A stretch of 64,000 bases of DNA from a virus. Shown piece by piece: positions 9,035 through 38,708 of the stretch. Location: IMG/VR virus record IMGVR_UViG_3300034143_000010, one strand, 5' to 3'. The number at the start of each line of letters is the position of its first letter. Within the stretch, counting starts at the first letter, position 1. Under the pieces are notes generated by a model. The model had not been told where the DNA came from. It saw nothing but the letters and a program-made list of their open reading frames with translations, and made no database searches. A program made the position numbers and the translations under genes.

Positions 9035-9084
9035 AGTCAGCCTTATACCCCTAAATAAACTCTTCGTCAAGGTGAAGATTTCCA

Positions 9085-9113: not shown

Positions 9114-9150
9114 TTTTGTTAGTCGGACATACCACAAAGGAGCATCAAAC

Positions 9151-9297: not shown

Positions 9298-9388
9298 AAG
9301 TCAATAAGGGGCGGCTCACTGGTCAGAGTGCGCCGCCCCTTGCACATCCACCCGAATCACCGCACAGCCATATGAGGGGAAACAGGAG

Positions 9389-10146: not shown

Positions 10147-10237
10147 AAGGGGCGTGAAGAGGAAGGGGCGCGGGCTCTCCCGCCAAAAGAATCGGGAGCT
10201 TGAAGCGAGCAGAGCCCGCGCCTCTCAGATAAAAGCG

Positions 10238-10738: not shown

Positions 10739-10747
10739 TTTAACTAT

Positions 10748-23778: not shown

Positions 23779-24080
23779 ACAAAGGTAAGACCACTGTCAG
23801 TAAGGAGAAACGCAGCAGAGAATATTACTGTGGGATATTGCTGTCAATATTTAGCTGCAGGTTATTAGGTGAGGTCTATTTACCGTGTTTGCCTTTACTA
23901 GGAAATAACAGTATATGATAAGCAAACATTAATCTCGCCTAAAGAGAAAATTTATCATACACTCCAACTCTTGCCAGTTGACCGCCTTGAGAGCGAGCTT
24001 TATGACAGCAAACTTCCACCACTTTACCTATTGTTGTCGAAAGAAGTTAACCACATCAAATGTTTATCGGGAGGGGAAAC

Positions 24081-24296
24081 ATGGGGTTCTCCACGTACAC
24101 TATAGAAGTGCAGAACAAAGCAATAGTTTTGCATCCCGACTCTACTCCTGATCAGCCAATCCAAATTGAAATTACCGACCGAAGTTCAGCGTACTCGGTT
24201 GTTAAGTGGGCTGGCGGGAAACAGTGGCTAGCTGTAGCAGCTAAACAACTAGCCCCGCCTAACTGGAATGGAAGATATTATGAAACATTCATATAA
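24081..24296 (+). CDS. Small hypothetical protein
   Basis: RBS ggagggg before ATG 24081, MGFSTYTIEV... Confidence 0.55.
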   Translation: MGFSTYTIEVQNKAIVLHPDSTPDQPIQIEITDRSSAYSVVKWAGGKQWLAVAAKQLAPPNWNGRYYETFI

Positions 24297-24335
24297 GTTA
24301 TTGTGTATCCCCCACAATCAGACAATTGCTGAATC

Positions 24336-25832: not shown

Positions 25833-27595
25833 ATCCTGAACTCAACTGATCCCACTTCTTTGGTTTTGAATAGGAAGTCGGGAGCGACTGACAACACGAA
25901 GCCGTCACCGTCGTCGGGCGAGCGACCCAATCGTTTGGGTTTGCGAAACTCTATCTTCGACTCCAGCCTCTTAACGTCCACGCCCTTGAGGTTGACCCAC
26001 TCGTAAAGGCGCTCACACAGATCGGCTTCGAGCGTCTCCGGGGGCTTTTCGATGCGTATCCCCTTCAGCGTCTCCGCCGCTTCGGCCATCGCTTGAGTGA
26101 TCAGATCGTGATAGGACTTCTCGTCGGTGGCACTGGCATTGAAATGCACTTCGTAGACACGGAAGTCTATGAACGCGGCGCGCAGCTCCATATCGGTTTT
26201 GAGCTTGTCCACGACGCCGCCACCGAAGCCGCCGCCGCCATCGACGCGGATGTGCAGGCTTTTAACGCCCTTCCCGGCGAGCTTGAGAGCCTCTGCCTTG
26301 ATGACGCGCGCATAATCGTTCGTGTCCTGTTTCCAGAACTGCGCGGCGCGCCAGGCGCGGCCCATGTAGCGAATAAAGAGTGTTCCGTAGTCACGCCCGT
26401 AGCGAGATACGTCCACGCCCATGCGCGCGCGCGTCGGGTCTTCTGCTGGAGCCTCCCGCTTGCAGGCAGCCTCGTAGCGCCCGACGGTAATCAGGCTCTT
26501 GTCGGAGATATTTGCCGGAGCAATGCCGAGCACGCGGAACATGAATTCCGGGTCGGGCTTAAAGATCGTGCCCTCCGGATGCGTGCCGTCTTTAGTGACG
26601 ACCGGGAAAGGTAGCTCGAAGGTCAAGTCATCTTCAGAGTGCTCAGTGACAACCTCGCAGTGCTTCTCCACCATTTCCTCGACGTACTGCCGCTTGACCG
26701 CGCCCGGCACGACCTCACGGCCTGCGACGACGTTCGGGTGATGAATGCAGGAGATGCGAAAGCTCTTGACGTTGGAATTGTTTTTCGCCTTATGAAACTT
26801 CGACGAGCGGGTCTTAGGGTTCGCCAGCATGAGCACGATGGAGATTCCGCCCGAGGTCATCGAATCAACCGCATTCCAGACGAAGTCGGCTACGCCCTCG
26901 GCCTCATCCAGCACATAGAGGTTATATTTGCCGTGCTGGCCCTGCGCGCGCTCTGTTCCTGTGCCGCTGGCGTTGTTTGTCGCCTTGCCCTTGATGAAGT
27001 GCTCGTCGCCTACCCTGATCTCCAAATCCATGACCCGGCCCGGAAGGCCCTTGTCGCGCCTGTCAGTCTTTATCTCCTTGAATAGCAGGTCATGAATCTG
27101 CTCGCCTGAAGGCGCAAAGCAGTACCCGACGCATGGCGTGAAGTGATCGAAGAAGTGGTTGACCAAGCCGGAGGTCAGCTTGGTCTTACCGACGGTGTGA
27201 CCGGCTTCGACACGAATACGGTTTTTAATGACTTGTCCGGGCTTCCAATACTGTAGATCGTCAACTGTAATAGGCCCCGGCTTCAGCCACGGGCAATACG
27301 GCGCATCTTCTTCGGAAAGGAAGCCAGCTTCGTATGCCTTGCGCTCGTGCTGCTGTCGTAGCGCGAGCACGTAAGCGTCTATAACCTGCTGCTGACCGGG
27401 ATGATCTTCGTCTCCGCTCCATGGCTCCCAGCCCAGATGATTCTTGATATAGGTGGCCGGTTCGTAGTGCGTAGCATTGAAGCGGCTCGTCTGAGGAGCT
27501 GGGCCATAGACCTTTAAGGCAAGCTGCGCGGCCTCCGCCTGTTGGTCAGGCGGCAACTGCATTATGCGTGCATAGACTTCCTCACGACTGAGCAT
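25829..27595 (-). CDS. terL: Terminase large subunit
   Basis: Walker A-like AGHTVGKT, Walker B VLDEAEG, nuclease GVDVSRYGRD and SPDDGDG. Start refined to MLSREEVY. Confidence 0.9.
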   Translation of the reverse strand: MLSREEVYARIMQLPPDQQAEAAQLALKVYGPAPQTSRFNATHYEPATYIKNHLGWEPWSGDEDHPGQQQVIDAYVLALRQQHERKAYEAGFLSEEDAPYCPWLKPGPITVDDLQYWKPGQVIKNRIRVEAGHTVGKTKLTSGLVNHFFDHFTPCVGYCFAPSGEQIHDLLFKEIKTDRRDKGLPGRVMDLEIRVGDEHFIKGKATNNASGTGTERAQGQHGKYNLYVLDEAEGVADFVWNAVDSMTSGGISIVLMLANPKTRSSKFHKAKNNSNVKSFRISCIHHPNVVAGREVVPGAVKRQYVEEMVEKHCEVVTEHSEDDLTFELPFPVVTKDGTHPEGTIFKPDPEFMFRVLGIAPANISDKSLITVGRYEAACKREAPAEDPTRARMGVDVSRYGRDYGTLFIRYMGRAWRAAQFWKQDTNDYARVIKAEALKLAGKGVKSLHIRVDGGGGFGGGVVDKLKTDMELRAAFIDFRVYEVHFNASATDEKSYHDLITQAMAEAAETLKGIRIEKPPETLEADLCERLYEWVNLKGVDVKRLESKIEFRKPKRLGRSPDDGDGFVLSVAPDFLFKTKEVGSVEFRI

Positions 27596-28100
27596 TGTCA
27601 GCAGGCAGCTCGTCAGGAGAAGCGCCAAGAAGTTCTGCCAGAGCCTCACGCGCATTAACCTTCACGTCTACTTTCTGGCGGCGGTCGCCCATCTCTTTAG
27701 CGATGTCATCAAGCAGGCCACGGAATTGCGTAACCTCCGCTGAATTGAAAGTATCGACATCAACGATTTCCTGAAAATCGCCACTGCCGACGGCCTTCCT
27801 ATCGGGCAGCCACAACCGGCCATTTTCGAGTAGGTCTTTCTCCAGTTCTTCGGCGAGCTTATTCAGCGACTCAACGCGCCGCTCCTTGCGGGCAAAACCT
27901 ACTTTCAGCGCGCTCGTCTCCGCTTCATCCTTAATCTGCGAGACCTTCACTTTGCGCGTTTTGCGATAGTGGTCTACCTGCTGGCGTGAGACTGAGTAAG
28001 GCTCGTCGAACTTACTTGCCTGCTCGTTAATCTCGTTGCTTTCGAGGCCCTCTGAGATCAATGCGAGCAGGTGCTTTTTTTGGTCGCTGTTCAGCTTCAT
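27582..28100 (-). CDS. Putative terminase small subunit
   Basis: Helical ORF overlapping the terL start. VSRQQVDHY, LDDIAKEMG. Confidence 0.65.
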   Translation of the reverse strand: MKLNSDQKKHLLALISEGLESNEINEQASKFDEPYSVSRQQVDHYRKTRKVKVSQIKDEAETSALKVGFARKERRVESLNKLAEELEKDLLENGRLWLPDRKAVGSGDFQEIVDVDTFNSAEVTQFRGLLDDIAKEMGDRRQKVDVKVNAREALAELLGASPDELPADNAQS

Positions 28101-28308
28101 CGTTTTCTTGCCCAGGCTCGGCATCAACGAACCTGACTGTTACTTCAAGGAGACGCGCGCGCCCGTGATGCGCGAGCAGAAGCGCCGCGTCGGCTTCGGA
28201 GGCTGGCAGGTCGAGCTTGATGCGCGCACCGTCGCCTCGCCCACCGGAGAAAGTCACAGCGCTTTGAATCGGCGGCAGTGAGGCGAGGAATTTGATCTCA
28301 TCTACCAA
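28027..28308 (-). CDS. Hypothetical protein
   Basis: DEIKFLASLPPIQSAVTFSG.GDGARIKLDLP. TTG start inferred. Confidence 0.5.
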   Translation of the reverse strand: MVDEIKFLASLPPIQSAVTFSGGRGDGARIKLDLPASEADAALLLAHHGRARLLEVTVRFVDAEPGQENDEAEQRPKKAPARIDLRGPRKQRD

Positions 28309-28495
28309 GCTGTCCCGCCTTGAATTGGAGGAATCTGTAAGGCTCTGTGTTCCTGTATTGCAGCGCGGCGCACCTGTCGCACCGCCGCACTTCCCTGTCC
28401 CTGCGAACGGTGCCGCCGTGCCAGACGCACCAGGCATGGAGAGGAAGGAGGTTGCAGAGTAAGAATTTAAGAATTTTGTTCATCGCACTTGTCAC
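28298..28495 (-). CDS. Small Cys-containing hypothetical protein
   Basis: LCNLLPLHAW...RCDRC. Coupled to neighbouring ORFs. Confidence 0.45.
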   Translation of the reverse strand: MTSAMNKILKFLLCNLLPLHAWCVWHGGTVRRDREVRRCDRCAALQYRNTEPYRFLQFKAGQLGR

Positions 28496-28505
28496 CCGTT
28501 ACTTG

Positions 28506-28901
28506 TCAGGCCTGCACAGTAAGTTGGCGGGCCATCTGCCGCGCACGCTTCGCCTCGCGCCGGTTCACCTTCGGCTCCTTGCGCACGGCGGTGATGCCGC
28601 GTATGAAATTGCCATCTTCTGGGTTCACACGGTCTGATCGGTGCGCATAGACGCCGTAGCGACCGCACACAGCTGATGGCTTATCAGCCTCTTCCTGCCG
28701 CTTCTGAAGCTCGTAGCGGCGTACATTACACTCAGCTTGAGAGCGCGCCGTATCCGGGTGCTTACAAGCCCTGTGATAGCCCGCCTCAACCGTTCCTGCT
28801 TCGATCAGGTCTGCGAGCAGCCTGATCTTGACCTCCTGCGGGTCGGTCTGCCGCTCCATCTCAGCGGCGACCTTCAGTTCTATTTCTTCGAGATCGATCA
28901 T
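28506..28901 (-). CDS. Hypothetical protein
   Basis: RBS ggag before MIDLEEIELK. Confidence 0.55.
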   Translation of the reverse strand: MIDLEEIELKVAAEMERQTDPQEVKIRLLADLIEAGTVEAGYHRACKHPDTARSQAECNVRRYELQKRQEEADKPSAVCGRYGVYAHRSDRVNPEDGNFIRGITAVRKEPKVNRREAKRARQMARQLTVQA

Positions 28902-29007
28902 TTTGTCTCCTGTTTGACTGCTCCGACGAAGCCTTGATAACAGAGGATTTGAATCACCAGAGTTATGGCCCGGTTTATGATCTTCACTGCGATACCTCAT
29001 GCTTCAA

Positions 29008-29026
29008 AATCGTCAAATTTACGAAT
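29008..29026. repeat. Palindromic repeat, copy 3
   Basis: aatcgt caaattt acgaat. Confidence 0.9.
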
Positions 29027-29027
29027 A

Positions 29028-29216
29028 TCAACTCTGTAGATTCTCGGCCCACTCGACCTGTCCCCGCACCACGAAGAACTGCGCGCCGCAGTCGTGCGGA
29101 CAAATGATCGAAGGCTCAGCCGACCATGTGCCGCCTTCGTGCTGTGTGATCTCGTGTTCGTCGAGAGTCATCCAGCCGCCGCAGCGCGGGCACTTGATTT
29201 TCTTCCTGATACTCAA
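29028..29216 (-). CDS. Small zinc-binding protein (DUF6527-like)
   Basis: CPRCG...TWSAEPSIICPHDCGAQFFVVRGQVEW. Confidence 0.55.
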   Translation of the reverse strand: MSIRKKIKCPRCGGWMTLDEHEITQHEGGTWSAEPSIICPHDCGAQFFVVRGQVEWAENLQS

Positions 29217-29341
29217 GACTCTTGCTCCCTCTTCGCCCGCTCCTTGTAGTAGTTGTCAAGCAACTTCTGAATGACGATGCTCAGAATGCCGATAAAAGCG
29301 ACGATCACGCTTGCAACGCCGCTATCTAATTTCCTGCGCAT
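29213..29341 (-). CDS. 42-aa single-TM protein
   Basis: MRRKLDSGVASVIVAFIGILSIVIQKLLDNYYKERAKREQES*, overlapping both neighbours. Confidence 0.5.
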   Translation of the reverse strand: MRRKLDSGVASVIVAFIGILSIVIQKLLDNYYKERAKREQES

Positions 29342-29937
29342 GGAAGCTTCTCCTCTGGAATTCTGAAGAATGCCTGAACGACCCTTGGGTCGAACTGGCT
29401 GCCGCTACAACGTGTCAGCGCCGCGGCTGCCGCCTGATAGCCTTTCCCTGCGCGATAACACCGGTTATTCGTGATGGCGTCATAAGCATCGGCCACGGCC
29501 ACGATGCGCGCCCCGAGCGTGATCCCAGCGCCTGCAAGGCCGCACGGGTAGCCATGTCCGTCAAATCGCTCGTGATGCTGGCCGACGATATCAACGATAT
29601 GGACGGGCATCTCCAGTTCGGCGAGGGCCGCCGTGCCCTCGATAACATGCGCTCGCATGTGCATGCGCTCGATAGCCGTTAATTCGCCTTCCTTCTTGAG
29701 CACAGAGTCTTTCGTGCAAATCTTGCCGATGTCGTGAAGCTGTGCGCCGTAATAGAGCGCGAGCAACTCGGCGCGCTCGAGCTTCAGCTCTCTGCCGATA
29801 AGCACGGAAACACGCGCGACCCGTAAAACATGGTCATGCGTTCCCCTATCCTTTAACTTGAGCGCAACTAACAATGCACTGCTAGCGATTCTTAGTGCAT
29901 CGCCCGTAAGTGCAGAAGATTTTAATGTTATCGGCAT
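29326..29937 (-). CDS. Stand-alone HD-GYP phosphodiesterase
   Basis: HVLRV, LHDIGKI, HVIEG, QHHERFDGHGYPCGL, ARIVAVADAYDAIT, GSQFDP. Confidence 0.92.
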   Translation of the reverse strand: MPITLKSSALTGDALRIASSALLVALKLKDRGTHDHVLRVARVSVLIGRELKLERAELLALYYGAQLHDIGKICTKDSVLKKEGELTAIERMHMRAHVIEGTAALAELEMPVHIVDIVGQHHERFDGHGYPCGLAGAGITLGARIVAVADAYDAITNNRCYRAGKGYQAAAAALTRCSGSQFDPRVVQAFFRIPEEKLPCAGN

Positions 29938-30263
29938 TTAATTATTCGGACGGTGTTATGCCCTGAAACCCTTCCACCGATGTAGCTTAGGTAAATCCGG
30001 TCTTACGTTTTGGGAGGGTGTCCGCGCCCCTCACGAACAGGTTATCTAAGACCTCTCTTTAGTTTATTTAGGGTGTCCGCCCGCCCGCCATTGAGAGCCT
30101 AATAAAGCCCGACGTTTAATTACTCAGAGGGTGTCCGCCTTGACGCACTCCGCCGAAAAGAGCTTAGATAAAATGGATATTTAACTTTTCAGGGGGGTGT
30201 TACGGCTTTTGCCCCTACAGGCAAAGGGTAGGACTTTTAATTGATTAGTTTGGGGAGGGTGAA
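29919..30263 (-). promoter_or_regulatory. Tandem array 2 of six tripartite promoter-like units
   Basis: (G/C)GGTG(T/A) at 29951, 30016, 30071, 30129, 30195, 30257. Each has YTAA (GTAA in unit 2) and a TANNNT hexamer at 13-14 nt on the minus strand. Confidence 0.75.
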
Positions 30264-30266
30264 ACG

Positions 30267-30299
30267 GTGAATAGGAAGAGAATAATTGCTATCGGTTTA
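30267..30299 (+). pseudogene. 5' remnant of a DUF4177-like gene
   Basis: GTG-NRKRIIAIGL resembles MFISRKIIAIGL of 5723 at the same position relative to the array, then similarity stops. Confidence 0.6.
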
Positions 30300-30346
30300 C
30301 CTTCGCCTCTAGTTTGCCGTCACTTTGATAGTTTCTCTTAGCTTAT

Positions 30347-30500
30347 CAAAGTGATCGCGCGTGCCCGTGACTACTCCGCATTACGCGGCTTCTCAAGCAA
30401 CGCCCTCCCTAATGGGACACGTTTGCGCTTGAAGGTTAAGCCCTAACCTCAATATCTCTAATGCGGCAGAGTGGTCACGACTAACACTCAAGCCGCATGT
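30347..30500 (-). ncRNA. Predicted TnpB omega-RNA (scaffold ending at TCAC 30367, guide beyond)
   Basis: Minus strand gagaagccgcgtaatgcggagtagTCAC is a typical IS200/605 right end just after tnpB. The 5' extent is a guess. Confidence 0.55.
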
Positions 30501-31514
30501 TTGGCATTCATGCCAGCGTTGCGAGAGTGTTTTAGGTACGCCAGCGCCGCATGTGCATCTCTGTGATGTTCCGCGAGGGTCAACTTTAACCAGCTTGCGT
30601 CCAGTCTCTTCCACTTTGTACGCAACCTTATTTAAAAAGCTTGACCATCCAGCATCATTAACAGACTTGGCTAGCATTCCGCTCGCCAAGCCTTTAATGT
30701 TCAAATCTTCTATGGCGATCAATCCGTAATTGTTGACGAGAGCGCGAGAGGCTTTATGGTGAAAGTCTGCGCGTTGATTCTTAATGTGGGCATGAATGCG
30801 CTGTAGAAGTTGCACGGCTTTCCGGCGACGATGAGAGCCTTTCTTCCGTCGTGCTACTTTGCGCTGTGCCCTGCGAAGCTTGGCTTGTGCTGTCTTGAAA
30901 TAGCGCGGGTTCTCTATTTCTGTACCATCAGAGAGGGTAGCGAAAGTGGTAAGGCCAACATCTATTCCAATAGACTCAGAGCAAGGCGGCAATGGCTTCT
31001 CTTCACATTCAAGACTAAAACACACGTACCAACGTCCAGCCTCGCGCTTAACAGAAACTGTCTTGATCTTGCCTTCGATAACGCGGTGAAGTTTTACTTT
31101 AACGAGCCCAATCCCTTGCAGTCTTAACTTGCCATTATCAAGTAAGCGGCAACCATTACCATAAGCAGGATAGGTAAAGCTGTCGAAGCGGCGTGCAGAT
31201 TTAAATCGCGGAAATCCCGCTTTCTCTTTACGCTTCACGCGAGCAAAGAAAGCCTTGAACGTCTTATCAAGACGGCGCAATACATCATGCGCTACGTTGC
31301 AATTGAAGATACCAGTGTCGCCCTCCGCTCGAATCTCTTTAAGCTGGCGTGTTTGATCGTATAGTTGGATGGACTTGCGCTCTAACTTCCAAGCGTCGCG
31401 GCGCTCCTGAAGCCCAGCGTTATAAAGTCTGCACGCCTCCGCTAGTTGACCATTCAGCAAGTCAACCTGTGCGCGTGTCGGATACAACCTATACTTGAAA
31501 GTCTTACGAATCAT
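30393..31514 (-). CDS. tnpB: RNA-guided endonuclease TnpB (IS605/IS1341-type)
   Basis: KTFKYRLYPT N-terminus, RuvC IGIDVGL / IAIEDLN / SRDHSAA, zinc finger CTCG...CQTCG. No tnpA in the window. Confidence 0.95.
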   Translation of the reverse strand: MIRKTFKYRLYPTRAQVDLLNGQLAEACRLYNAGLQERRDAWKLERKSIQLYDQTRQLKEIRAEGDTGIFNCNVAHDVLRRLDKTFKAFFARVKRKEKAGFPRFKSARRFDSFTYPAYGNGCRLLDNGKLRLQGIGLVKVKLHRVIEGKIKTVSVKREAGRWYVCFSLECEEKPLPPCSESIGIDVGLTTFATLSDGTEIENPRYFKTAQAKLRRAQRKVARRKKGSHRRRKAVQLLQRIHAHIKNQRADFHHKASRALVNNYGLIAIEDLNIKGLASGMLAKSVNDAGWSSFLNKVAYKVEETGRKLVKVDPRGTSQRCTCGAGVPKTLSQRWHECQTCGLSVSRDHSAALEILRLGLNLQAQTCPIREGVA

Positions 31515-31521
31515 CTGCTAT

Positions 31522-32022
31522 TTACGCAGCCTTCTTTCTCACATCCCGGCCCGCCGCCAGATCAAGCTCGCGCTGAATAGCCCTCTCCGAGAGCCCCCGA
31601 CCGCGCAACGTCTTTGCCGCTTCCGCCGCCGCATCTCTCGCCCTCTTCGCCCATTCCTTTGTCGGCCAACTCCCCACGTAGAAGTGCTTCCCGTCAATCG
31701 TGATGCACACGGCAAACGGGCAACGCTTTGAATGAGGATTGCGATAGATAGAGCCGTCAGTGATTTTCAGATTAGCGCGGCGATAATCAAGAGTCTCTTT
31801 ATTGATGCGCCGCACGCGCACGCCTCGCGGCAAATCCAACACGGCATGATGAAGCATTATTTGTGTGGAGCGTCCGGCCATACACCTGAGCCGATAGACG
31901 TATGAGTATTTACCTACGCGCATGAGATGCCAGCGATAGCGATTGAGGCGCAGGTAATCTTCAAGATCAACTATCGCCGTCTGCTCTGAATTGACTAATG
32001 GTAATTCTCTATAAGGTTTCAT
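31522..32022 (-). CDS. Degenerate HNH-AP2 domain protein (paralog of 10238-10738)
   Basis: Near-identical sequence, same loss of HNH catalytic residues. Confidence 0.7.
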   Translation of the reverse strand: MKPYRELPLVNSEQTAIVDLEDYLRLNRYRWHLMRVGKYSYVYRLRCMAGRSTQIMLHHAVLDLPRGVRVRRINKETLDYRRANLKITDGSIYRNPHSKRCPFAVCITIDGKHFYVGSWPTKEWAKRARDAAAEAAKTLRGRGLSERAIQRELDLAAGRDVRKKAA

Positions 32023-32108
32023 CGCTTTTGATTCGAGGCGCGGCCCACTCGCTTCAAGCTCCCGACCTTTGGCGAGAGAGCCCGCGCCCCGTCCTCTTCA
32101 CGCCCCTT

Positions 32109-32462
32109 TTATTTGACGTGAAGAACCCGCTTGTCCCTGGTTTTCATGTAGCCCGCAACCCTGCTGGAGAACGTCCGCCACCTGTCAAGGAAAAGGCCCG
32201 CCTGAAACAGGCAATAGAAAACCATCTGTGCCCGCTCGCCCCGCTCCTTCCTTGTAGAGAGCAGATAGATCAACTCCATCAGAGCATGAGCCCTCCTATC
32301 CCTTCTCCCGCTCATCAGTACGGTGTTGACCAAAGCCATACCCTTCGCCGTGGCGCTCTCTTCTCCGTAAAGCTCGACGGCGCAACTCACGCTATTCAAC
32401 CTGAATCCCTTGACCTGTCGTGCCGTCATCTTCCGGCGCTCGCGCTTTCGTCTACTCATCAC
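32109..32462 (-). CDS. Hypothetical basic protein (paralog of 9787-10146)
   Basis: Near-identical translation. Confidence 0.7.
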   Translation of the reverse strand: MMSRRKRERRKMTARQVKGFRLNSVSCAVELYGEESATAKGMALVNTVLMSGRRDRRAHALMELIYLLSTRKERGERAQMVFYCLFQAGLFLDRWRTFSSRVAGYMKTRDKRVLHVK

Positions 32463-32860
32463 GCGGCCTCACTTTCAGGCCCGTTCAGAGAGCGCACAAG
32501 CTGGTAGGCGCGGCCAACTATCTCGACCTCGCTCGGATGAAGGCACAGGTCTGGACTATTCAATAAACTTCTGAGCATGACGAAGCCTTCCGGCATCATG
32601 TAGTAGCGCCTGACCATGTAGCCGTAAGGTGTGAGGACGAGCCCTGTTTCGCCGTGTAGAAGATTGTTCGTGCGGGTGCAGTAGATACGGTCGCCGCGCT
32701 GAAAGAATCCCTGCTCGTCGTCTGTCAGTTGGAATTCAACGATGATTGATTCGTCGGAGTCGGTGACGAAGGCGAGCGCCTTGTCGGTCTGCTCCGATTG
32801 CTTTCGCCAGAGGGCAAGGTCTGACACGTTGCCCCGTTGTATGTTAGGATTGTTTTGCAT
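32459..32860 (-). CDS. Degenerate S24/LexA-like C-terminal domain protein (paralog of 9389-9790)
   Basis: Near-identical translation. Confidence 0.6.
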   Translation of the reverse strand: MQNNPNIQRGNVSDLALWRKQSEQTDKALAFVTDSDESIIVEFQLTDDEQGFFQRGDRIYCTRTNNLLHGETGLVLTPYGYMVRRYYMMPEGFVMLRSLLNSPDLCLHPSEVEIVGRAYQLVRSLNGPESEAA

Positions 32861-32960
32861 CTCCTGTTCTTCCCCTCAATTTTTGGCTGTGCGGGTGGAT
32901 AGGTTGGTGTTCAGGCAGCGGCGCACTCTGACCAGTGCGCCGCTGCTATTTAGTTTCACC

Positions 32961-33107
32961 TCAGATACGGATGCCCCTCACATATTCAGCCGTGCGCTTG
33001 TGCCCGAAGGCATCAACTTCGATTCTCTGTTTAATCTCGTATTTGCTGGCAGGCTTGGCCGTCGTGGTGCTGACCGTGATATTGGTTGTGCTGGCTGTGC
33101 GGTTCAT
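32961..33107 (-). CDS. 48-aa protein ending in GIRI (paralog of 9151-9297)
   Basis: MNRTASTTN...AEYVRGIRI*. TTGACA-18-TAACAT promoter upstream. Confidence 0.75.
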   Translation of the reverse strand: MNRTASTTNITVSTTTAKPASKYEIKQRIEVDAFGHKRTAEYVRGIRI

Positions 33108-33225
33108 CTCTTTAGCTCCTGTCGTGATGTGTAACTGACGGAAGAGATGTTAACGCACGAGTAAGCGTCTTGTCAAGCAAATAATTACTCTTGCGTAAAT
33201 ATCTTTTTGGATTTAGAATGCGCGC

Positions 33226-33447
33226 ATGGTCAAAGGAATGTTTACTACTGAAGAGGCAGCAGCAGAATTAGGCGTGACCTCTGCGCGCGTGCGGCAGATG
33301 ATTATTGATGGCACTATTGAAGCTGAGAAGTTTGGGCGCGACCTTTTGATAACAGCAGAGGCGCTTCAAGTGGCGAGGCAGAGAAAAACGAAGCCCGGCC
33401 CGACTCCAACAGCTAAGAAATCAGCAAAGAAAAGCAGTAAGAAGTAA
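33226..33447 (+). CDS. Small excisionase-like (HTH_17) DNA-binding protein
   Basis: FTTEEAAAELGVTSARVRQMIIDGTIEAEKFGRDLLI. TTGCGT-17-TAGAAT ends 6 nt before the ATG (probably leaderless). Confidence 0.85.
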   Translation: MVKGMFTTEEAAAELGVTSARVRQMIIDGTIEAEKFGRDLLITAEALQVARQRKTKPGPTPTAKKSAKKSSKK

Positions 33448-33480
33448 CAAGCCTCTTACCCCTCACCGGAGCTAATCATT

Positions 33481-34554
33481 ATGGCTGACCCTGAACATTT
33501 AAAGCTTCTCCTAGAGTATGATGTATTCACTTGGAATAATTGGAGAGAGAGTAACCCTGAAGTAACTCCTGATCTTAGCGAAGCTATTCTTGATAAAGTA
33601 AATCTAATTAGGTTCAACCTCAGTTGGGCGAATTTGAATGACGCGAGACTTTCTGATGTAGACCTTTCAAAAGCTATTCTTGATCGAGCAGACCTAAGAG
33701 ACGCATATCTCTTTGATACAAACCTTGAAGGCGCTGATCTAATACAGTCAAACCTTGAAGGCGCAACTCTATTCAGAGTAACGTTGCGCGAGGCTAGACT
33801 TGTAGAGACGATCTTACGATTTACAACACTCTTCAGCACAAACCTAGACTCAGCAGACCTAACGAGAGCGGACTTTGCTGATGCTAGAATTGCTGATGTC
33901 AATTTTATCCGCAATGACCTTAGCGTAGTTAATAATCTACATTCAGTACGTCACTCTGGGCCTTCAAATATAAGCATTGATACGCTGTATATATCCTCTG
34001 GGGGAATTCCGGAAGTCTTTCTGCATGGCTGTGGCGTACCCGAGTCATTTATTTTTCAAGTCCCTGCACTTGTCGCATCAATTGAACCAATCCAGTTCCA
34101 CTCTTGCTTTATTAGCTACAGTACAAAAGATGAGGGATTTGCTAGACGGCTTTATTCACGAATGCGAGATGAGAAATTGCGCGTATGGTTTGCCCCTGAA
34201 GATATAAAGGGTGGGCAGAAATTGCATGAACAGATAGAGCGAGCTATTCAACTGCATGACAGACTTTTATTAGTGTTATCTGAGAACAGTATGCAAAGCG
34301 AATGGGTAATAACTGAGATTCAGGGGGCACGGAAAACAGAGATTGAAGAGAACAGACGTAAACTGTTCCCGATTACTATTGTAAATTTCGATAAAGTCAA
34401 AACTTGGAAATGCTTCGATGCTGACAGCGGCAAAGATTTAGCTAAAGAGGTGCGCGAGTATTACATACCTGATTTCTCAAACTGGAAAGATCAGGATTCA
34501 TTCGAGAAAGCATTCGATAGATTGCTTCGTGATTTGAAAGCTGAAGAGAAGTAA
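33481..34554 (+). CDS. Pentapeptide-repeat plus TIR domain protein
   Basis: A(D/N)LxxA pentapeptide repeats, SCFISYSTKD...VRVWFAPED, SEWVITEI (catalytic Glu). Confidence 0.9.
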   Translation: MADPEHLKLLLEYDVFTWNNWRESNPEVTPDLSEAILDKVNLIRFNLSWANLNDARLSDVDLSKAILDRADLRDAYLFDTNLEGADLIQSNLEGATLFRVTLREARLVETILRFTTLFSTNLDSADLTRADFADARIADVNFIRNDLSVVNNLHSVRHSGPSNISIDTLYISSGGIPEVFLHGCGVPESFIFQVPALVASIEPIQFHSCFISYSTKDEGFARRLYSRMRDEKLRVWFAPEDIKGGQKLHEQIERAIQLHDRLLLVLSENSMQSEWVITEIQGARKTEIEENRRKLFPITIVNFDKVKTWKCFDADSGKDLAKEVREYYIPDFSNWKDQDSFEKAFDRLLRDLKAEEK

Positions 34555-34625
34555 AATGGTAAGCAGGAGTAGACCGCTAAAGGCTAAAGACGATTCAAAG
34601 GTGAGTAAGAAGGGTAGAAAGGCCA

Positions 34626-35696
34626 GTGGACAAGCGTTATCAAGTCTTTGTTAGCTCAACTTATGTTGATCTTCAAGAAGAAAGGCAAGAAGTAATCCAA
34701 GCTCTACTAGAACTGGATTGCATTCCTGCCGGGATGGAGCTTTTTCCTGCCGCAGATGATGACCAATGGACATTGATAAAGAAAGTTATTGACGACTGTG
34801 ATTATTACATTGTGATTATTGGTGGCCGGTACGGTTCTTTGTCCCCCTCTGGCGTGAGTTACACACAGATGGAATATGAGTATGCTGTGTCTCAAGGGAA
34901 GCCTATTATCGGATTTATTCATAGAGACCCCGGCTCTATCCCTGCGTCCAAAACAGAGCAATCAGAAGAAGGGAGAGCAAAACTTGAATCATTTCTTGAA
35001 TTGGTTAAACGGAAGGTTTGTAAATATTGGACTACGCCATCAGAATTGGGGTCAGTTGTGAGTAGAAGTTTGGTTCAATTAATCAAAAAGAAACCTGCGA
35101 TAGGATGGATTCGAGCGGATTTGATTTCAGATGAGGCAGCGCAGGAAATTTTAAAATTAAGGAAGCAACTTGAAGATTATGAACTTCTATTAGAAGCATC
35201 CCGCTTTAAATCACCAGAAGGAACGGACGAACTATCACAGGGGGACGATGAGGTTATTATTAATTATACATGTGATAAGTGCGCTTTCTTGACAGAGGGA
35301 GAAACCGAACGTATTAAGATATGCTATGAGGTTTGGCACACAACTTGGAATGCTATGTTTGCGGCCATTTCCCCCTTAATGCTTGATGAAGCCTCTAGTG
35401 ATTCATTAAAAATAGCTTTGGATAAGCTATTAGAGGATGAGCAATACCTCTCTTTAATGTTAGACGTAGAAGATAAGAGTATTGGTTTTATAAATTTTAT
35501 GATTGGAGAGGCGGATTTTCAAACCATCATAATCCAGTTTCGCGCCCTCGGGCTAATAACTAAAAGTAATAGGGAGAAAGTCTCTACAGATAAATCAACA
35601 TATTGGTCTTTGACTCCGTATGGTGATTATCTAATGACTAAATTGAGGGCATACAAAAGACCGCAGAAACCATCTGAAACTCAAGAGTCAATATAG
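34626..35696 (+). CDS. DUF4062 domain protein
   Basis: KRYQVFVSSTYVDLQEERQ...PAGMELFPAA...DCDYYIVIIGGRYGS...SYTQMEYEYA. GTG start. Confidence 0.9.
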   Translation: MDKRYQVFVSSTYVDLQEERQEVIQALLELDCIPAGMELFPAADDDQWTLIKKVIDDCDYYIVIIGGRYGSLSPSGVSYTQMEYEYAVSQGKPIIGFIHRDPGSIPASKTEQSEEGRAKLESFLELVKRKVCKYWTTPSELGSVVSRSLVQLIKKKPAIGWIRADLISDEAAQEILKLRKQLEDYELLLEASRFKSPEGTDELSQGDDEVIINYTCDKCAFLTEGETERIKICYEVWHTTWNAMFAAISPLMLDEASSDSLKIALDKLLEDEQYLSLMLDVEDKSIGFINFMIGEADFQTIIIQFRALGLITKSNREKVSTDKSTYWSLTPYGDYLMTKLRAYKRPQKPSETQESI

Positions 35697-35856
35697 CTAC
35701 TAACTTGTGATCCACCAATTGACACCCCACACTCCACACTCATATCTTACCCTCGCTATTCAATGAGAGATTGTTAGACTGACTGTCTGTTGATTGTCTG
35801 GGCTAATTTGTGCGCCAAGGCTGCTATACCTTATAGAGAATTCTAGGAGAAAAGCT

Positions 35857-36762
35857 ATGGGAGAAACAAATTCCAATAACATGAGTTTGGATGATTCTCT
35901 TAAACGTGCTCAACTTAAGAAAATACGTTTGGAGATAAAACAACTAAAAAAAGGAAATGGGTGGGGAGAAGCAATCACTCAATTTATTCCTTTAATTTCT
36001 GTTTTAATTGCTGTCGGTGGTTTTTTATTCGGTATTTACGAGTTCCAGAAAAAAAGTAAAGTAGAACAAGATAAGATGTTGTTCGAGCAACAAAAAGATC
36101 GAGAAACGAGAGAAGCAGATCAAACTATTAGAATCCAAGGCCAAATACGGTCTGACCTTGAGCAGTTGTTCAATTTCACACAAGATAAACAACAGACTAT
36201 CTCCAAAGTACTTTTCACCCTTGGGGACTTGAAAGCTTATCTTGAAATTGAAAAAACCTTAAAACAATCTGGCTCTAATTCTTATAAGACAAGAGATATA
36301 ACTACCAATTTAATTAAAAGTGTTATTGATGATTGCGATTTCGACGTACATAGAGATGTCAAATATGACCGCGCCTTGATGAATCATTGGGAAGATAGCC
36401 GACCATATCTCAGAGAAAATACTGGGATGAATGAATATATTTTATATAAGTATAGTGAGGCTTTACGGAAAATTTATAACATCGATCCCTCTGTAGTTAG
36501 CAGTTTAAAATATACGGGTCAGCGGTTTGATTACCCCGATGGGTATCGGAAACTTAGTTCGCCACAAATACGTCATTTAGAGGAGATTATTACGAGCTTT
36601 AACGAACACATGCAGCTATTCGAGGCAGACGACGTTAAGAAGCATTACCAAAAAAAATTTCAGGTGGCAACATGTAATTCTACGCTGACAGAGCAAATAT
36701 TCGGGGTTAAGTTCGACCCCAGTGGTGATCGTGAGCTAGAGCGTTGCCCCAATACTAAATAA
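35857..36762 (+). CDS. Hypothetical single-TM protein within an integron-type cassette
   Basis: RBS aggaga. Flanked by GTTAGAC (35773) and GCCTAAC-aactca (36811). Confidence 0.7.
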   Translation: MGETNSNNMSLDDSLKRAQLKKIRLEIKQLKKGNGWGEAITQFIPLISVLIAVGGFLFGIYEFQKKSKVEQDKMLFEQQKDRETREADQTIRIQGQIRSDLEQLFNFTQDKQQTISKVLFTLGDLKAYLEIEKTLKQSGSNSYKTRDITTNLIKSVIDDCDFDVHRDVKYDRALMNHWEDSRPYLRENTGMNEYILYKYSEALRKIYNIDPSVVSSLKYTGQRFDYPDGYRKLSSPQIRHLEEIITSFNEHMQLFEADDVKKHYQKKFQVATCNSTLTEQIFGVKFDPSGDRELERCPNTK

Positions 36763-36887
36763 GTAGTGAGTTGTTAAAAGCATTATCTTGTTTATACACA
36801 ACAGGTGGCTGCCTAACAACTCACTCACTCAAAATACATAGACTCCACCTCTCCCCTATCATCCCATTCAATATCCATGAAGTAGAT

Positions 36888-36906
36888 AATCGTAAATTTG
36901 ACGAAT
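36888..36906. repeat. Palindromic repeat, copy 4 (inverted)
   Basis: aatcgt aaatttg acgaat. Confidence 0.9.
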
Positions 36907-36917
36907 TTGGATATTAC

Positions 36918-36952
36918 GGGGTAGGGCGAAAGCTTTGCCCCTGTTTTGTTTT
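36918..36952 (+). terminator. Rho-independent terminator
   Basis: agggcgaaagctttgcccct plus gttttgtttt. Reverse complement of 5971-6005. Confidence 0.75.
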
Positions 36953-36968
36953 CTGCTAAATTTGCGGC

Positions 36969-37412
36969 ATGGCTCACACTTCACTGCATAAGCTTATACC
37001 TTGCATCATATTGGCGTTTTCCGCCCTGATAACTCCTAGCATCCGCGCCCAAGTTGACGCTGTTGCAACTGCGCGCTATGACGAGCAAGGCCAGATGGTT
37101 ACGTTGTTCGGTATATACGGAACTGACAATGCCAAAGAATCAAAGTGTAGCCTGTTCACGCTCACAGGAAATATTGTTTCCGTAGAGCATGACAGTAAAG
37201 GGCAGATCACGAATTTCTACATCAAGCCGCGCAGGGGCAAATCTCAGAACGTCTATCTAACAGGAATTACAGTTGACAAGCGATTACCAGCAGACGAAAT
37301 CAAGAGGCTGCCGTCTTTGATAGCCAGAGGTAAAAGGGTACGGCTGCGCTATTACGGCTGCGGCACAACGGGCGCGCACAATGAAGCAGATGGAATTGAC
37401 GCTTTGAACTAA
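36969..37412 (+). CDS. Secreted hypothetical protein
   Basis: Signal-peptide-like N-terminus (LIPCIILAFSALITPSIRA). Confidence 0.65.
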   Translation: MAHTSLHKLIPCIILAFSALITPSIRAQVDAVATARYDEQGQMVTLFGIYGTDNAKESKCSLFTLTGNIVSVEHDSKGQITNFYIKPRRGKSQNVYLTGITVDKRLPADEIKRLPSLIARGKRVRLRYYGCGTTGAHNEADGIDALN

Positions 37413-37419
37413 AAAGCCC

Positions 37420-37944
37420 TCAATCCGTGTAAGGAAAGACTTGCAGCAAATGCAGCCCGAAAGGCAGCTTGAAGGATTCGGGCAGTACCCACAGATGCCT
37501 CAAGTTAGCTTCATTTATCAACCTTGACTCGCTCGGAAAGACTTCGATAGCTGTTCGCTCATAGCCCCGCAACCCGTTCTTTATCCTCTGCAAATCATCC
37601 CAGCTTTGAATGGGCCGTTTATCTTCTCGCCAGATCATCATTAGATCAACGTCGCCCCATTCGCAGGGAATGCGCCCGATGAATACTATAAAGAATCTAT
37701 TCCTGAAACATTCATAAACACAATTCAGCATCGGGTCAACGCCTTCATGTGCGGGAACGGGAAAGCGTTGCCATTCTCCCCACGCGGGAAGAGAGCCGCC
37801 TATTTTCCTCTGCCTGAAATCATTCATCAGAGGTTTGACCCCTTCATTTTCGCGTCCGTCAGATATGCTCATGCCACAACAAGCGGCCAGCCGTCGCCTT
37901 TGCCTCTTGATTGTTTTATTCTTTTGTCTGGCTACTTTGCTCAT
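37420..37944 (-). CDS. Conserved phage protein (DUF7694-like)
   Basis: SWDDLQRIKN...ERTAIEVFPSESRLINEANLRHLWVLP. Confidence 0.65.
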   Translation of the reverse strand: MSKVARQKNKTIKRQRRRLAACCGMSISDGRENEGVKPLMNDFRQRKIGGSLPAWGEWQRFPVPAHEGVDPMLNCVYECFRNRFFIVFIGRIPCEWGDVDLMMIWREDKRPIQSWDDLQRIKNGLRGYERTAIEVFPSESRLINEANLRHLWVLPESFKLPFGLHLLQVFPYTD

Positions 37945-38009
37945 CGCGCGTGCCCCTGTCTTTCAGCTTGAGAGCGACGAGCAGGGCAGCCGTTGCCGCT
38001 CTCAGCTCG

Positions 38010-38291
38010 TTACCGCTCACGTCGCCCCTTTTCAGAAAGCGCGTCCCTGATCTTCTCGACGTTCTTATCAATCCGCTCGACCGTCTTCCAGCGCTCGTCT
38101 AAAAGCTCGCGCGTGACCATCTTCTCCTGCGCCTTCTCGACCGCGTCAATCCTGTCGGTCGTGCGCGCCTGCGTAACCCAGACAGAGAGGGTTGCGCCGC
38201 CGATGCTGACGGCGAGCGCAATAACGATTTGAATTATGGAGAGTTTTTCGAGCAGGGACTTTCTCGTCTCGCTCTCTACGACGGGTGACAT
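38010..38291 (-). CDS. Single-TM coiled-coil protein of the lysis cassette
   Basis: IIQIVIALAVSIGGATLSVWV followed by a coiled coil. Adjacent to the holin-like gene. Confidence 0.55.
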   Translation of the reverse strand: MSPVVESETRKSLLEKLSIIQIVIALAVSIGGATLSVWVTQARTTDRIDAVEKAQEKMVTRELLDERWKTVERIDKNVEKIRDALSEKGRRER

Positions 38292-38300
38292 GCGCGCTCC

Positions 38301-38708
38301 TTACTGCTGCGGAAAGGCCTGATTCAGAGCGTCGCGCAGCGGAACCAGGAAGCGGGCGAACTTCGGACGCCTGATCTTGTCTGTGACCAGCGCCGTGACG
38401 GTGGAGATGGCCTGATTGATGAGAAGGTCTTGCCAGCCGCTGAACACACTCGAAGAGGCAGCTGCACTCAGGGCCTGCACATTCGACCCACGGGGAAGCG
38501 CCAGCGCCCAGTTCAGCAGATTGCTCGTCTTGACTTTGTCTCTCTGTCCCCAGAACAGAGAGTAAAACGCCATCACCGAGCCGATGAACTGGAGGGCGTA
38601 AGTGACAAAGCCTTCCTGTTGCTCAGGAGTGATCTTGCCCTTAGTGGCGAGATACGTTCCCAGAATGCCGAGCGCCCAGCGAAGAGCGGATGCGATTTTT
38701 GGATTCAT
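38301..38708 (-). CDS. Putative holin
   Basis: Two N-terminal TM helices (SALRWALGILGTYLATKG; ALQFIGSVMAFYSLFW). Late position. Confidence 0.6.
   Translation of the reverse strand: MNPKIASALRWALGILGTYLATKGKITPEQQEGFVTYALQFIGSVMAFYSLFWGQRDKVKTSNLLNWALALPRGSNVQALSAAASSSVFSGWQDLLINQAISTVTALVTDKIRRPKFARFLVPLRDALNQAFPQQ

What the first reader, a model, noticed from the sequence alone, without database searches (positions are those of the whole stretch)
30320..37960. TnpB guide duplicated 7.6 kb away: candidate RNA-guided homing of a defence cargo block
Immediately after the right-end TCAC (30367) the minus strand reads GGGCACGCGCGAT-cactttg. The same 13-mer recurs at 37955-37943 (gacag-GGGCACGCGCGAT-gagc) and supplies the AT of the start codon of the 174-aa gene. 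A given 13-mer is expected about 0.002 times in 128 kb of uniform random sequence. The two copies bracket tnpB, the regulatory module, TIR, DUF4062 and three more genes. Removing the block would recreate GACAG plus a full-length guide match, while the filled allele keeps only 13 nt. This fits TnpB cutting the empty allele and copying a multi-gene cargo without TnpA (inference). The RuvC D-E-D triad is intact.
Basis: partly seen in the sequence, partly recalled or inferred. Interest (0 to 1): 0.88.

Follow-up and report, generated by a model that had tools for sequence, protein, structure and literature searches.

The report
TnpB-guided island inside phage HD gene
The repeated 13 bases are not chance: an 8.1-kb accessory island sits inside a prophage HD-GYP gene, its transposase-less TnpB carries a guide RNA copied from the uninterrupted gene, and that uninterrupted gene still exists in a related phage in the same soils, so TnpB probably acts as an RNA-guided homing endonuclease for the whole island, though cutting is untested.

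Summary
The copy of ATCGCGCGTGCCC at 37943-37955 is the last 13 nt of a 26-codon stub of an old HD-GYP gene (38020-37943, minus strand). The copy at 30354-30366 is the first 13 nt of a 17-nt piece of the same gene, which abuts the precise right end (..GTCAC) of tnpB.

A related phage from the same metagenomes (L112; also IMG/VR L120) has the uninterrupted gene. Its flanks align to window 38877-37943 and 29822-29212, and 10 nt stand in place of 8,120 nt. That allele reads GACAG-AGGCACGCGCGATCACTCCG, which matches guide positions 2-17.

It also brings a promoter-like repeat array and a recoded new 5' end for the HD gene, with 6 mismatches to the guide.

tnpB has an intact D-E-D triad and zinc finger. 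Its omega-RNA scaffold is supported by covariation. It has no left end and no TnpA.

Homing or exclusion by TnpB is coherent but inferred. The TAM is unknown: relatives that keep a left end use CCAT, not GACAG. The surviving empty allele mismatches guide position 1. This scan has noted solo phage TnpBs with empty-allele guides on other DNA. The multi-gene cargo and the recoded rescue are what is new here.

The parts
37943..38020 (-). Stub of the old HD-GYP gene: codons 1-26, ending ..KDRGTRD. Its last 13 nt are copy 2 of the 13-mer (37943-37955). GACAG at 37956-37960 lies where a TAM would lie.
   Evidence: tblastn with the N-terminus of P0126: 88% identity over 26 aa, E 1e-9. blastn to L112 runs exactly to 37943.
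29823..37942 (.). Accessory island of 8,120 nt. It is absent from the related phage L112, where 10 nt (CACTCCGTGA) stand in its place.
   Evidence: Joint 29822->37943 in contigs of runs X1 and X2. L112 alignment. GC 46% against 52-56% in the backbone. Also absent from the collinear phage G051:C170.
37420..37944 (-). 174-aa DUF7694 gene. Its annotated ATG straddles the island junction.
   Evidence: Pfam DUF7694, E 1.3e-15; ORF list.
36969..37412 (+). 147-aa ORF of unknown function, with a hydrophobic N-terminus.
   Evidence: ORF list; no Pfam or PADLOC family.
36880..36952 (.). Hairpin plus palindromic motif, shared with island A (5971-6041) and with 29010-29034.
   Evidence: Self-blast; motif search gave 3 hits against 0 expected.
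35794..36762 (+). 322-aa cargo ORF of unknown function.
   Evidence: No family found.
34626..35696 (+). DUF4062 protein (cargo).
   Evidence: Pfam DUF4062, E 1e-30.
33481..34554 (+). Pentapeptide-repeat plus TIR protein (cargo).
   Evidence: Pfam Pentapeptide E 1.6e-27 and TIR_2 E 4.5e-22; PADLOC TIR models.
33226..33447 (+). HTH_17 (Xis/MerR-like) small regulator, divergent from the core genes.
   Evidence: Pfam HTH_17, E 1.9e-6.
31522..32860 (-). Core genes of 133 aa (weak S24-like), 117 aa and 166 aa (weak match to an HNH-endonuclease PHROG). They are 92% identical to an inverted paralogous copy at 9138-10737.
   Evidence: Self-blast; PHROG and Pfam weak hits.
30393..31514 (-). tnpB, 373 aa, with intact RuvC D-E-D and CCCC zinc finger. 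Its ATG lies 7 nt after the stop of the 166-aa gene, so there is no left end.
   Evidence: Pfam HTH_OrfB_IS605, OrfB_IS605 and Cas12f1-like_TNB; alignment to ISDra2-numbered structures; no left-end motif in the window.
30367..30520 (-). Omega-RNA scaffold and right end, ending ..GTAGTCAC at 30367.
   Evidence: Alignments. Consensus fold of 9 homologues: 26 predicted pairs, 15 with compensatory changes.
30350..30366 (-). Guide: 17 nt GGGCACGCGCGATCACT, identical to old HD gene sequence (last base of codon 22 to first base of codon 28). The first 13 nt are copy 1 of the 13-mer.
   Evidence: Comparison with the stub and with L112, L120 and G051.
30320..30354 (.). Perfect 11-bp inverted repeat with a 13-nt loop. 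On the minus strand it starts at guide position 13.
   Evidence: Read from the sequence; self-hits.
29938..30338 (.). Array of 5-6 units of about 55-66 nt carrying GGGTGT (ACACCC on the minus strand), plus the truncated start of a DUF4177 gene. Paralogous to 5389-5765.
   Evidence: the DUF4177 assignment rests on the intact copy at 5723-5977.
29823..29937 (-). New, recoded 5' end of the HD gene (35 codons up to ..GTHD). GC 43.5%; 64% nt identity to the stub.
29326..29822 (-). Remainder of the HD-GYP gene, 89% identical to L112. It would serve as the distal homology arm.
   Evidence: Pfam HD_5, E 2e-30; blastn; exact runs up to 79 nt.

Best explanation
Shown:
- A prophage of an acidobacterial (Pyrinomonadaceae/Blastocatellia-like) genome carries an 8,120-nt island inside the 5' end of its HD-GYP gene.
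- On one side, a 26-codon stub of the old gene is left.
- On the other side, the island supplies a repeat array and a recoded new 5' end, so the HD reading frame is whole again.
- Inside the island sits a tnpB without TnpA and without a left end. Its catalytic residues are intact and its omega-RNA scaffold is conserved by covariation.
- The precise right end of tnpB abuts 17 nt of the old HD sequence. That is about the natural TnpB guide length.
- The guide therefore spells the uninterrupted allele. That allele exists in a related phage found in the same samples.

Inferred:
- TnpB with its omega-RNA cuts uninterrupted HD alleles of related phages that enter the same cell.
- The break is repaired from the island-bearing genome, using the holin/97-aa arm and the HD arm.
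- Repair copies the whole island with its TIR and DUF4062 cargo. This is non-restorative, intronless-type homing.
- If repair fails, the competitor phage is destroyed instead.

Inferred self-protection:
- The stub keeps only 13 nt of the target.
- The working HD copy is recoded (6 of 17 mismatches).
- The guide's own template is preceded by the right end (..GTCAC), not by GACAG.
For: - Empty allele. Contigs of runs X1 and X2 join 29822 to 37943 with 10 other letters between. Their depth is 82 and 8, against about 46 and 4-7 for the filled form.
- L112 is a 54-kb phage contig with holin, a 97-aa gene and HD contiguous. It aligns to 38877-37943 (80%) and 29822-29212 (89%).
- The same allele is in an IMG/VR genome from the JGI sample that also holds the filled contig L037.
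- Stub.
- The guide matches L112 at positions 2-17. It matches the virtual ancestral allele (stub plus L112 continuation) at positions 1-17.
- The target codes for the conserved GTRDH motif, which carries the same codons in the distant phage G051.
- Right end and scaffold. Catalytic residues.
- Recoding and base composition.
- The homology arms hold exact runs of 37 and 79 nt.
- Relatives at 70-76% identity in phage contexts also start 1-8 nt behind an upstream gene, with no left end, and some lie next to HNH genes.
- The paralogous island A has two HNH endonuclease genes in the tnpB slot.
- Literature: ISDra2 guide of about 16 nt and cuts 15-21 bp from the TAM (PMC8612924). A TnpB-dependent drive of IS605 in plasmids that is barely affected by TnpA inactivation, as summarised in the review PMC13565253; primary preprint 10.1101/2025.02.20.638934 (listed, not read).
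Against: - No cleavage data exist.
- The TAM is unknown. Four relatives with a left end share CCAT just 5' of it, and the two G021 copies share TTAC; the site here has GACAG. The presumed TAM-reading helix of this TnpB does differ from the CCAT group, so the point stays open.
- The only empty alleles found carry A instead of G at guide position 1 and differ at positions 18-19.
- The arms are only 80-89% identical.
- The island was seen in one genetic background only.
- Neither transposition nor homology-directed copying predicts the 13-nt overlap of stub and guide.
- tnpB is linked to module B across a 131-bp exact repeat. That link rests on the window's own assembly and on synteny with L112 and G051. 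Short-read contigs break there.
Confidence: 0.5

Rival explanations
1. Historical footprint. tnpB once landed in, or was recombined next to, an HD gene. The island then grew by unrelated recombination at a variable spot of the phage genome. The guide-target match only records that history. TnpB today does nothing for the island, or only maintains itself.
For: - Any TnpB right-end flank matches its empty site by construction.
- The locus is a mosaic: a truncated DUF4177 gene, a paralogous island A in inverted order, and a 13-nt overlap that no clean mechanism predicts.
- The TAM of left-end-bearing relatives is CCAT, not GACAG.
- The surviving empty allele mismatches guide position 1.
Against: - tnpB is full length with all catalytic and zinc residues.
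- Its scaffold keeps covarying pairs.
- Exactly one guide length (17 nt) of old HD sequence is retained next to the right end, while everything beyond it was replaced.
- The left-end-less lineage persists in several phages at 70-76% identity.
- The working HD copy is recoded at the target.
Confidence: 0.34
2. Short-guide regulator. The hairpin that starts at guide position 13-14 leaves about 13 free guide bases. TnpB then binds, without cutting, the 13-nt site at the start of the 174-aa gene and tunes its expression, in the manner of TldR.
For: - The 11-bp inverted repeat at 30320-30354 begins at guide position 13.
- The 13-nt site overlaps the annotated start codon at 37942-37944.
Against: - The 13-mer is explained by descent from the HD gene.
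- The RuvC triad is intact, whereas TldRs are nuclease-dead (PMC13565253).
- The annotated N-terminus of the 174-aa ORF may be spurious, because the DUF7694 match starts at residue 96.
Confidence: 0.07
3. Site-specific integration. The 13-bp direct repeats are attL and attR cores of a circular element inserted by a recombinase.
For: Direct repeats flank a 7.6-kb block.
Against: - No integrase or recombinase family was found among the island genes searched.
- Against the empty allele the indel is 8,120 nt and ends at 29823, not at the second 13-mer.
Confidence: 0.03
4. Chance recurrence of a GC-rich 13-mer.
For: 0.6-0.9% of 13-mers recur somewhere in this window. A perfect 15-nt inverted repeat with no evident meaning lies in the same region.
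Against: Both copies lie within fragments of the same HD gene segment, and their flanks align to an uninterrupted allele.
Confidence: 0.01

Closest known systems
ISDra2 TnpB with its reRNA/omega-RNA (IS200/IS605; PDB 8EXA, 8BF8, 8H1J)
   Same: - Same domain set and the same D-E-D and CCCC residues (phmmer E 8e-56).
- The scaffold overlaps the 3' end of the gene.
- A guide of about 16-17 nt is taken from the DNA past a precise right end.
- The guide matches the uninterrupted site.
   Different: - No TnpA and no left end.
- The residues at ISDra2 TAM-contact positions differ and the TAM is unknown.
- The insert relative to the empty site is an 8.1-kb multi-gene island, not a 1.7-kb IS.
TnpB-driven gene drive of IS605 elements in plasmids, 'non-restorative homing' (bioRxiv 10.1101/2025.02.20.638934; review PMC13565253)
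   Same: The proposed mechanism is the same. TnpB cuts the orthologous site that lacks the insert on another copy, and repair copies the insert. This does not depend on TnpA.
   Different: That work concerns complete ISs in laboratory plasmids. Here the case is a natural prophage, the copied unit would carry TIR/DUF4062 cargo and a recoded piece of the target gene, and nothing has been tested.
Free-standing homing endonuclease genes of T-even phages (Seg, Mob; intronless homing and marker exclusion), as summarised in PMC13565253
   Same: - A nuclease gene sits among phage genes.
- The target lies in a conserved gene of related phages, at or near the insertion point.
- The carrier is protected by sequence differences at the target.
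- Neighbouring DNA is co-converted.
- HNH genes occupy the same slot in the paralogous island.
   Different: Recognition would be by a guide RNA, not by protein. The target gene is physically split, and the island restores it with a new 5' end.
TldR (nuclease-dead TnpB-like repressors)
   Same: TnpB lineage, no transposase, and a guide with a nearby partial match at the 5' end of a gene.
   Different: RuvC is intact here, so the locus does not meet the defining loss of nuclease residues.
Engineered home-and-rescue / cleave-and-rescue gene drives (from my own knowledge; no paper was read here)
   Same: A nuclease and a guide aimed at a conserved gene, together with a recoded, guide-resistant copy of the targeted part and linked cargo.
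   Different: Those are synthetic, Cas9-based and eukaryotic. Here the resemblance is an inference from natural architecture.

Membership tests
TnpB/omega-RNA (OMEGA) RNA-guided nuclease, IS200/IS605 type | HTH_OrfB, RuvC (OrfB_IS605) and zinc-ribbon TNB domains | tested here: met
   Pfam E 3e-9, 2e-29 and 5e-17.
TnpB/omega-RNA (OMEGA) RNA-guided nuclease, IS200/IS605 type | Catalytic D-E-D and CCCC zinc finger present | tested here: met
   Aligned with D191, E278, D361 and C331/C334/C351/C354 in ISDra2 numbering.
TnpB/omega-RNA (OMEGA) RNA-guided nuclease, IS200/IS605 type | Structured RNA scaffold over the 3' end of the gene, up to a precise right end | tested here: met
   Conservation ends at ..GTCAC in 9 loci. 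15 of 26 predicted pairs show compensatory changes. Expression of the RNA was not tested.
TnpB/omega-RNA (OMEGA) RNA-guided nuclease, IS200/IS605 type | The guide (about 16 nt past the right end) matches the uninterrupted site | tested here: met
   17 nt identical to old HD sequence; 16 contiguous nt to L112, L120 and G051.
TnpB/omega-RNA (OMEGA) RNA-guided nuclease, IS200/IS605 type | A TAM 5' of the target that the protein accepts | tested here: inconclusive
   The site has GACAG. Left-end-bearing relatives have CCAT or TTAC. The presumed TAM-reading helix differs from theirs. A biochemical screen is needed.
Complete IS200/IS605 insertion sequence (TnpA peel-and-paste) | Left end with a subterminal hairpin next to the target motif | tested here: not met
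   7 nt separate the upstream stop codon from the tnpB ATG. The left-end motif of relatives was not found anywhere in the window.
Complete IS200/IS605 insertion sequence (TnpA peel-and-paste) | Y1 (HUH) TnpA gene | tested here: not met
   No Y1_Tnp among the island ORFs searched. It is present in relative L033.
Complete IS200/IS605 insertion sequence (TnpA peel-and-paste) | Insertion without target duplication | tested here: not met
   13 nt of the target are present on both sides.
Free-standing homing endonuclease with intronless homing | The allele lacking the element carries the target at the insertion point | tested here: met
   L112, L120 and Logan contigs.
Free-standing homing endonuclease with intronless homing | The carrier allele is protected by sequence differences | tested here: inconclusive
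   In silico only: a 13-nt stub, a recoded copy with 6 of 17 mismatches, and the right end in the TAM position. Resistance to cutting was not tested.
Free-standing homing endonuclease with intronless homing | Cleavage-dependent conversion of empty alleles to filled alleles | not testable with these tools
   Needs a co-infection or two-plasmid assay.
TldR nuclease-dead repressors | Loss of RuvC catalytic residues | tested here: not met
   The triad is intact.

The most novel reading that the evidence does not exclude
A natural 'home-and-rescue' RNA-guided gene drive in a phage. A TnpB that has lost its transposase and left end targets a conserved motif-coding stretch of the HD-GYP gene of related phages. 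The unit that is copied into the break is an 8-kb island. It carries TIR-type cargo, its own promoter array and a recoded, guide-resistant 5' end that restores the target gene. The varying TAM-reading helix among left-end-less phage TnpBs would then reflect retargeting once TnpA no longer constrains the TAM.
Probability: 0.33. Interest if true: 0.85.

Novelty: new variant of a known kind. Interest (0 to 1): 0.68.

Why it matters
- TnpB is the most abundant family of RNA-guided nucleases, and many copies lack a transposase. What keeps those copies alive is an open question.
- This locus offers filled and empty alleles from the same natural communities, a defined guide-target pair, a candidate TAM and explicit self-protection features. 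The homing-endonuclease reading can therefore be tested directly.
- If the reading holds, RNA-guided homing can move multi-gene accessory islands between phages, here with TIR and DUF4062 genes.
- It would also show that nature arrived at the 'nuclease plus recoded rescue' layout used in engineered gene drives.
- If it fails, the locus is still a clean example of how a guide records the history of an insertion.

Tried and rejected
- Megablast of 29900-38100 against the phage collection: no match.
- Exact guide 20-mer in viral contigs, and the right-junction 20-mer in viral contigs and metagenome contigs: no match.
- tnpB in the held assembly G000: absent. G000 lacks window 22815-31569 and breaks at repeats.
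- The search for related loci with TnpB in genome contigs: only one relative, at 30% identity.
- The search for related loci with the HD protein in metagenome contigs: nothing above 59% identity over a short segment, and at most 46% over most of the protein.
- Contexts of the identical 93-aa and HD proteins: all filled.
- Guide-prefix duplication in seven relatives' loci (about 2.5 kb of flank on each side): none meaningful.
- HD stub upstream of the tnpB block of the Mu-like phage L132: none, so the architecture was not replicated there.
- L028 guide in viral contigs: only chance hits. 13 of the 15 hits to the window's 16-mer were also chance.
- Stub of the 853-aa gene at island A: none.
- Rfam on 29000-38500: nothing relevant.
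- A simple inversion deriving B from an A-like layout was rejected, because no remnant of the DUF4177 3' part lies beyond 36952.
- An alternative assembly path, with the 21 kb between the inverted 1.6-kb repeats flipped, was considered. It was set aside because L112 and G051 are collinear with the window's order. It has not been excluded by reads.
- The TAM could not be derived for this protein.

Full report
**1. The observation**

The 13-mer ATCGCGCGTGCCC occurs at 30354-30366 and 37943-37955. No other hit at up to one mismatch exists in the window. The similarity extends to 17 of 19 nt.

tnpB (30393-31514, minus strand, 373 aa) has the three Pfam domains of TnpB. I aligned its 3' flank with six homologous loci, and compared two copies of one IS in genome G021. 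Conservation stops exactly after ..GTCAC/..ATCAC in all of them.

The residues matching ISDra2 D191, E278, D361 and the four zinc cysteines are present (numbering from PMC10097598).

Within this window 0.6-0.9% of 13-mers recur. The 13-mer occurs three times in the 5.5-Mb assembly. On statistics alone the repeat would be only mildly unusual.

**2. What the two copies are**

I laid Logan contigs of two metagenome runs on 28500-38500. One contig in each run joins 29822 to 37943 with ten other letters between. Its depth is 82 and 8, against about 46 and 4-7 for the form in the window. Read on the minus strand, that contig is an uninterrupted HD-domain gene (..KDRGTRDHSVRVARV..).

The closest HD homologue (P0126, 93% identity) lies on a 54-kb phage contig, L112. 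There the holin gene, a 97-aa gene and the HD gene are contiguous. L112 aligns to window 38877-37943 (80%) and to 29822-29212 (89%). Ten nucleotides (CACTCCGTGA) stand where the window has 8,120 nt.

Window 38020-37943 (minus strand) encodes codons 1-26 of that old HD gene (tblastn E 1e-9). Copy 2 of the 13-mer is thus the end of a gene stub.

Copy 1 is the start of a 17-nt piece of the same gene (GGGCACGCGCGATCACT, 30366-30350) that directly abuts the right end. The two pieces overlap by 13 nt, and that overlap is the repeat.

The same motif-coding sequence, with the same codons, is found in the HD gene of the more distant collinear phage G051:C170. It is also found in an IMG/VR genome, L120, from JGI sample 3300034137. 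That sample also holds a contig of the filled form, L037.

**3. The real unit**

Against the empty allele, the insert is 29823-37942. Its GC is 46%, against 52-56% in the flanks. In minus-strand order it holds:
- a DUF7694 gene;
- a 147-aa ORF;
- a hairpin/motif element;
- a 322-aa ORF;
- a DUF4062 protein;
- a pentapeptide-TIR protein;
- an HTH_17 regulator, divergent from three small core genes (133, 117 and 166 aa);
- tnpB with its right end;
- the 17-nt guide;
- an 11-bp perfect inverted repeat;
- the truncated start of a DUF4177 gene;
- an array of five to six 55-66-nt units;
- a new 5' end for the HD gene (29937-29823).

The new 5' end has 43.5% GC and is 64% identical in nucleotides to the stub, yet it encodes nearly the same peptide. 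At the guide site it reads GGGAACGCATGACCATG, which is six mismatches in 17. The island therefore splits the HD gene and repairs it with a recoded piece.

L112 has no such motif in the 20 kb held.

**4. State of tnpB**

Its ATG lies 7 nt after the stop of the 166-aa gene. No TnpA is present in the window. The left-end motif that four relatives share was not found anywhere in the window.

Relatives at 70-76% identity (L026, L027, L028, L031, L034) also start 1-8 nt, or in one case about 66 nt, behind an upstream gene. They lie in phage-like contexts, some next to HNH genes. L033 keeps a Y1 TnpA, and L033 and L088 both keep a left end.

The omega-RNA scaffold folds consistently in nine homologues. 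15 of 26 predicted pairs show compensatory changes.

The window also holds a paralogous island A (5389-12305), with the same core genes at 92% identity and in inverted order. Island A carries a TIR-TPR cargo, and two HNH endonuclease genes sit where island B has tnpB. tnpB thus sits in a slot used by classical homing endonuclease genes.

**5. Mechanism**

Established knowledge:
- ISDra2 TnpB uses a guide of about 16 nt taken from the right flank, and cuts 15-21 bp from a TAM (PMC8612924).
- TnpB promotes the spread of IS605 in plasmid populations largely independently of TnpA activity. A recent review calls this non-restorative homing (PMC13565253; primary preprint 10.1101/2025.02.20.638934, listed but not read).

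The architecture here fits that mode:
- The guide spells an allele that exists in co-occurring phages.
- The arms hold exact runs of 37 and 79 nt.
- Any repair of a break templated from the filled genome would copy the whole island.
- The carrier has three plausible protections: a 13-nt stub, a recoded gene, and the right end in the TAM position.

I put this reading at about 0.5.

Weak points:
- The TAM is unknown. Relatives with a left end have CCAT, and the G021 pair has TTAC.
- The helix that aligns with the ISDra2 TAM contacts reads NFSACQ in the CCAT group and NCNVAH here. It differs in every left-end-less phage copy. That leaves GACAG possible but unproven.
- The empty alleles found have A at guide position 1 (a synonymous AGG to AGA change) and differ at positions 18-19. 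This could be an escape variant, or it could simply mean the guide no longer has a target.
- The 13-nt overlap is not produced by peel-and-paste transposition or by homology-directed copying. I cannot explain it. It lies close to the expected cut zone, which is only suggestive.

**6. Rivals**
- Historical footprint with no present role, about 0.34.
- Regulator using a 13-nt guide, about 0.07. This is weakened by the intact RuvC.
- Integrase att cores, about 0.03. No recombinase was found, and the indel boundary does not fit.
- Chance, about 0.01. This is refuted by homology.

**7. Caveat on assembly**

The held assembly G000 lacks window 22815-31569. Short-read contigs break at a 131-bp exact repeat (31570-31700, equal to 10690-10560). 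The link of tnpB to module B therefore rests on two things: the window's own long contig, and collinearity with L112 and G051.

**8. Comparison and novelty**

As a nuclease and RNA, this is a member of the TnpB/omega-RNA family. As a mobile element, it fails the tests for a complete IS200/IS605: no left end, no TnpA, and a target overlap.

It would work like a free-standing phage homing endonuclease, but with RNA-guided recognition. This scan has already noted solo phage TnpBs whose guides match empty alleles on other DNA. The general idea is therefore not new.

What is new here is the unit: an 8.1-kb island with TIR and DUF4062 genes that splits a conserved gene and restores it with a recoded end. 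I rate it a new variant of a known kind, with interest 0.68.

Noticed in passing
window 5389-12305: Paralogous island A lies between the tape-measure gene and an 853-aa tail gene. It has the same repeat array and an intact DUF4177 gene. It also has a TIR-TPR protein (627 aa; PADLOC TIR-TM model, E 6e-60) and the same three core genes at 92% identity, in inverted order. Two HNH endonuclease genes sit where island B has tnpB.
   Followed up: partly
window 5389-5765 and 29938-30306: Arrays of five to six units of 55-66 nt, each with TTTAAT-like, GAGGGTGTCCGC-like and further boxes. The distal units are shared between the two arrays. No such motif occurs in the 20 kb of L112 that was held.
   Followed up: partly
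window 6018-6042, 29010-29034, 36880-36904: The near-palindromic 25-nt motif TCGTCAAATTTACGAWTATCAACTC occurs three times, against 0 expected. Two copies lie next to the hairpins that close the cargo of islands A and B. It may be an operator or a terminator-associated site.
   Followed up: no
window 22815-31569: This stretch, which includes tnpB, the HD gene and the terminase, is missing from the held assembly G000. It exists as a separate 8.9-kb contig in ENA metagenome assemblies. Contigs break at 131-156-bp repeats shared by islands A and B.
   Followed up: yes
TnpB residues about 68-80 (window) and homologues L026-L034, L033, L087, L088, L095: The helix aligned with the ISDra2 TAM contacts K76/F77/Q80 is constant (NFSACQDVL) in relatives that keep a left end with CCAT. 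It is different in every left-end-less phage copy. This hints that TAM specificity drifts once TnpA is gone.
   Followed up: partly
L112:10061-10085 and L120: The co-occurring empty allele differs from the guide at position 1 by a synonymous AGG to AGA change. Under the homing reading this is what an escape variant would look like. It is a single lineage, so the point is anecdotal.
   Followed up: partly
L026:3635-3649: In relative L026 the called downstream gene starts at an ATG inside the right-end hairpin (ATGCGGAGTAGTCAC) and reads on into the flank. The right end may supply a start codon to an interrupted gene. In the window the same ATG opens only an 11-codon frame.
   Followed up: no
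window 32003-32017 and 35828-35842: A perfect 15-nt inverted repeat lies at the start of the 166-aa gene and upstream of the 322-aa gene. No function is evident. It shows that short exact repeats occur in this region without any known meaning.
   Followed up: no
window 29326-29937: The interrupted and restored gene is a stand-alone HD_5/HD-GYP-type phosphohydrolase at the head of the packaging operon. It is conserved in position in L112, G051 and L132.
   Followed up: partly
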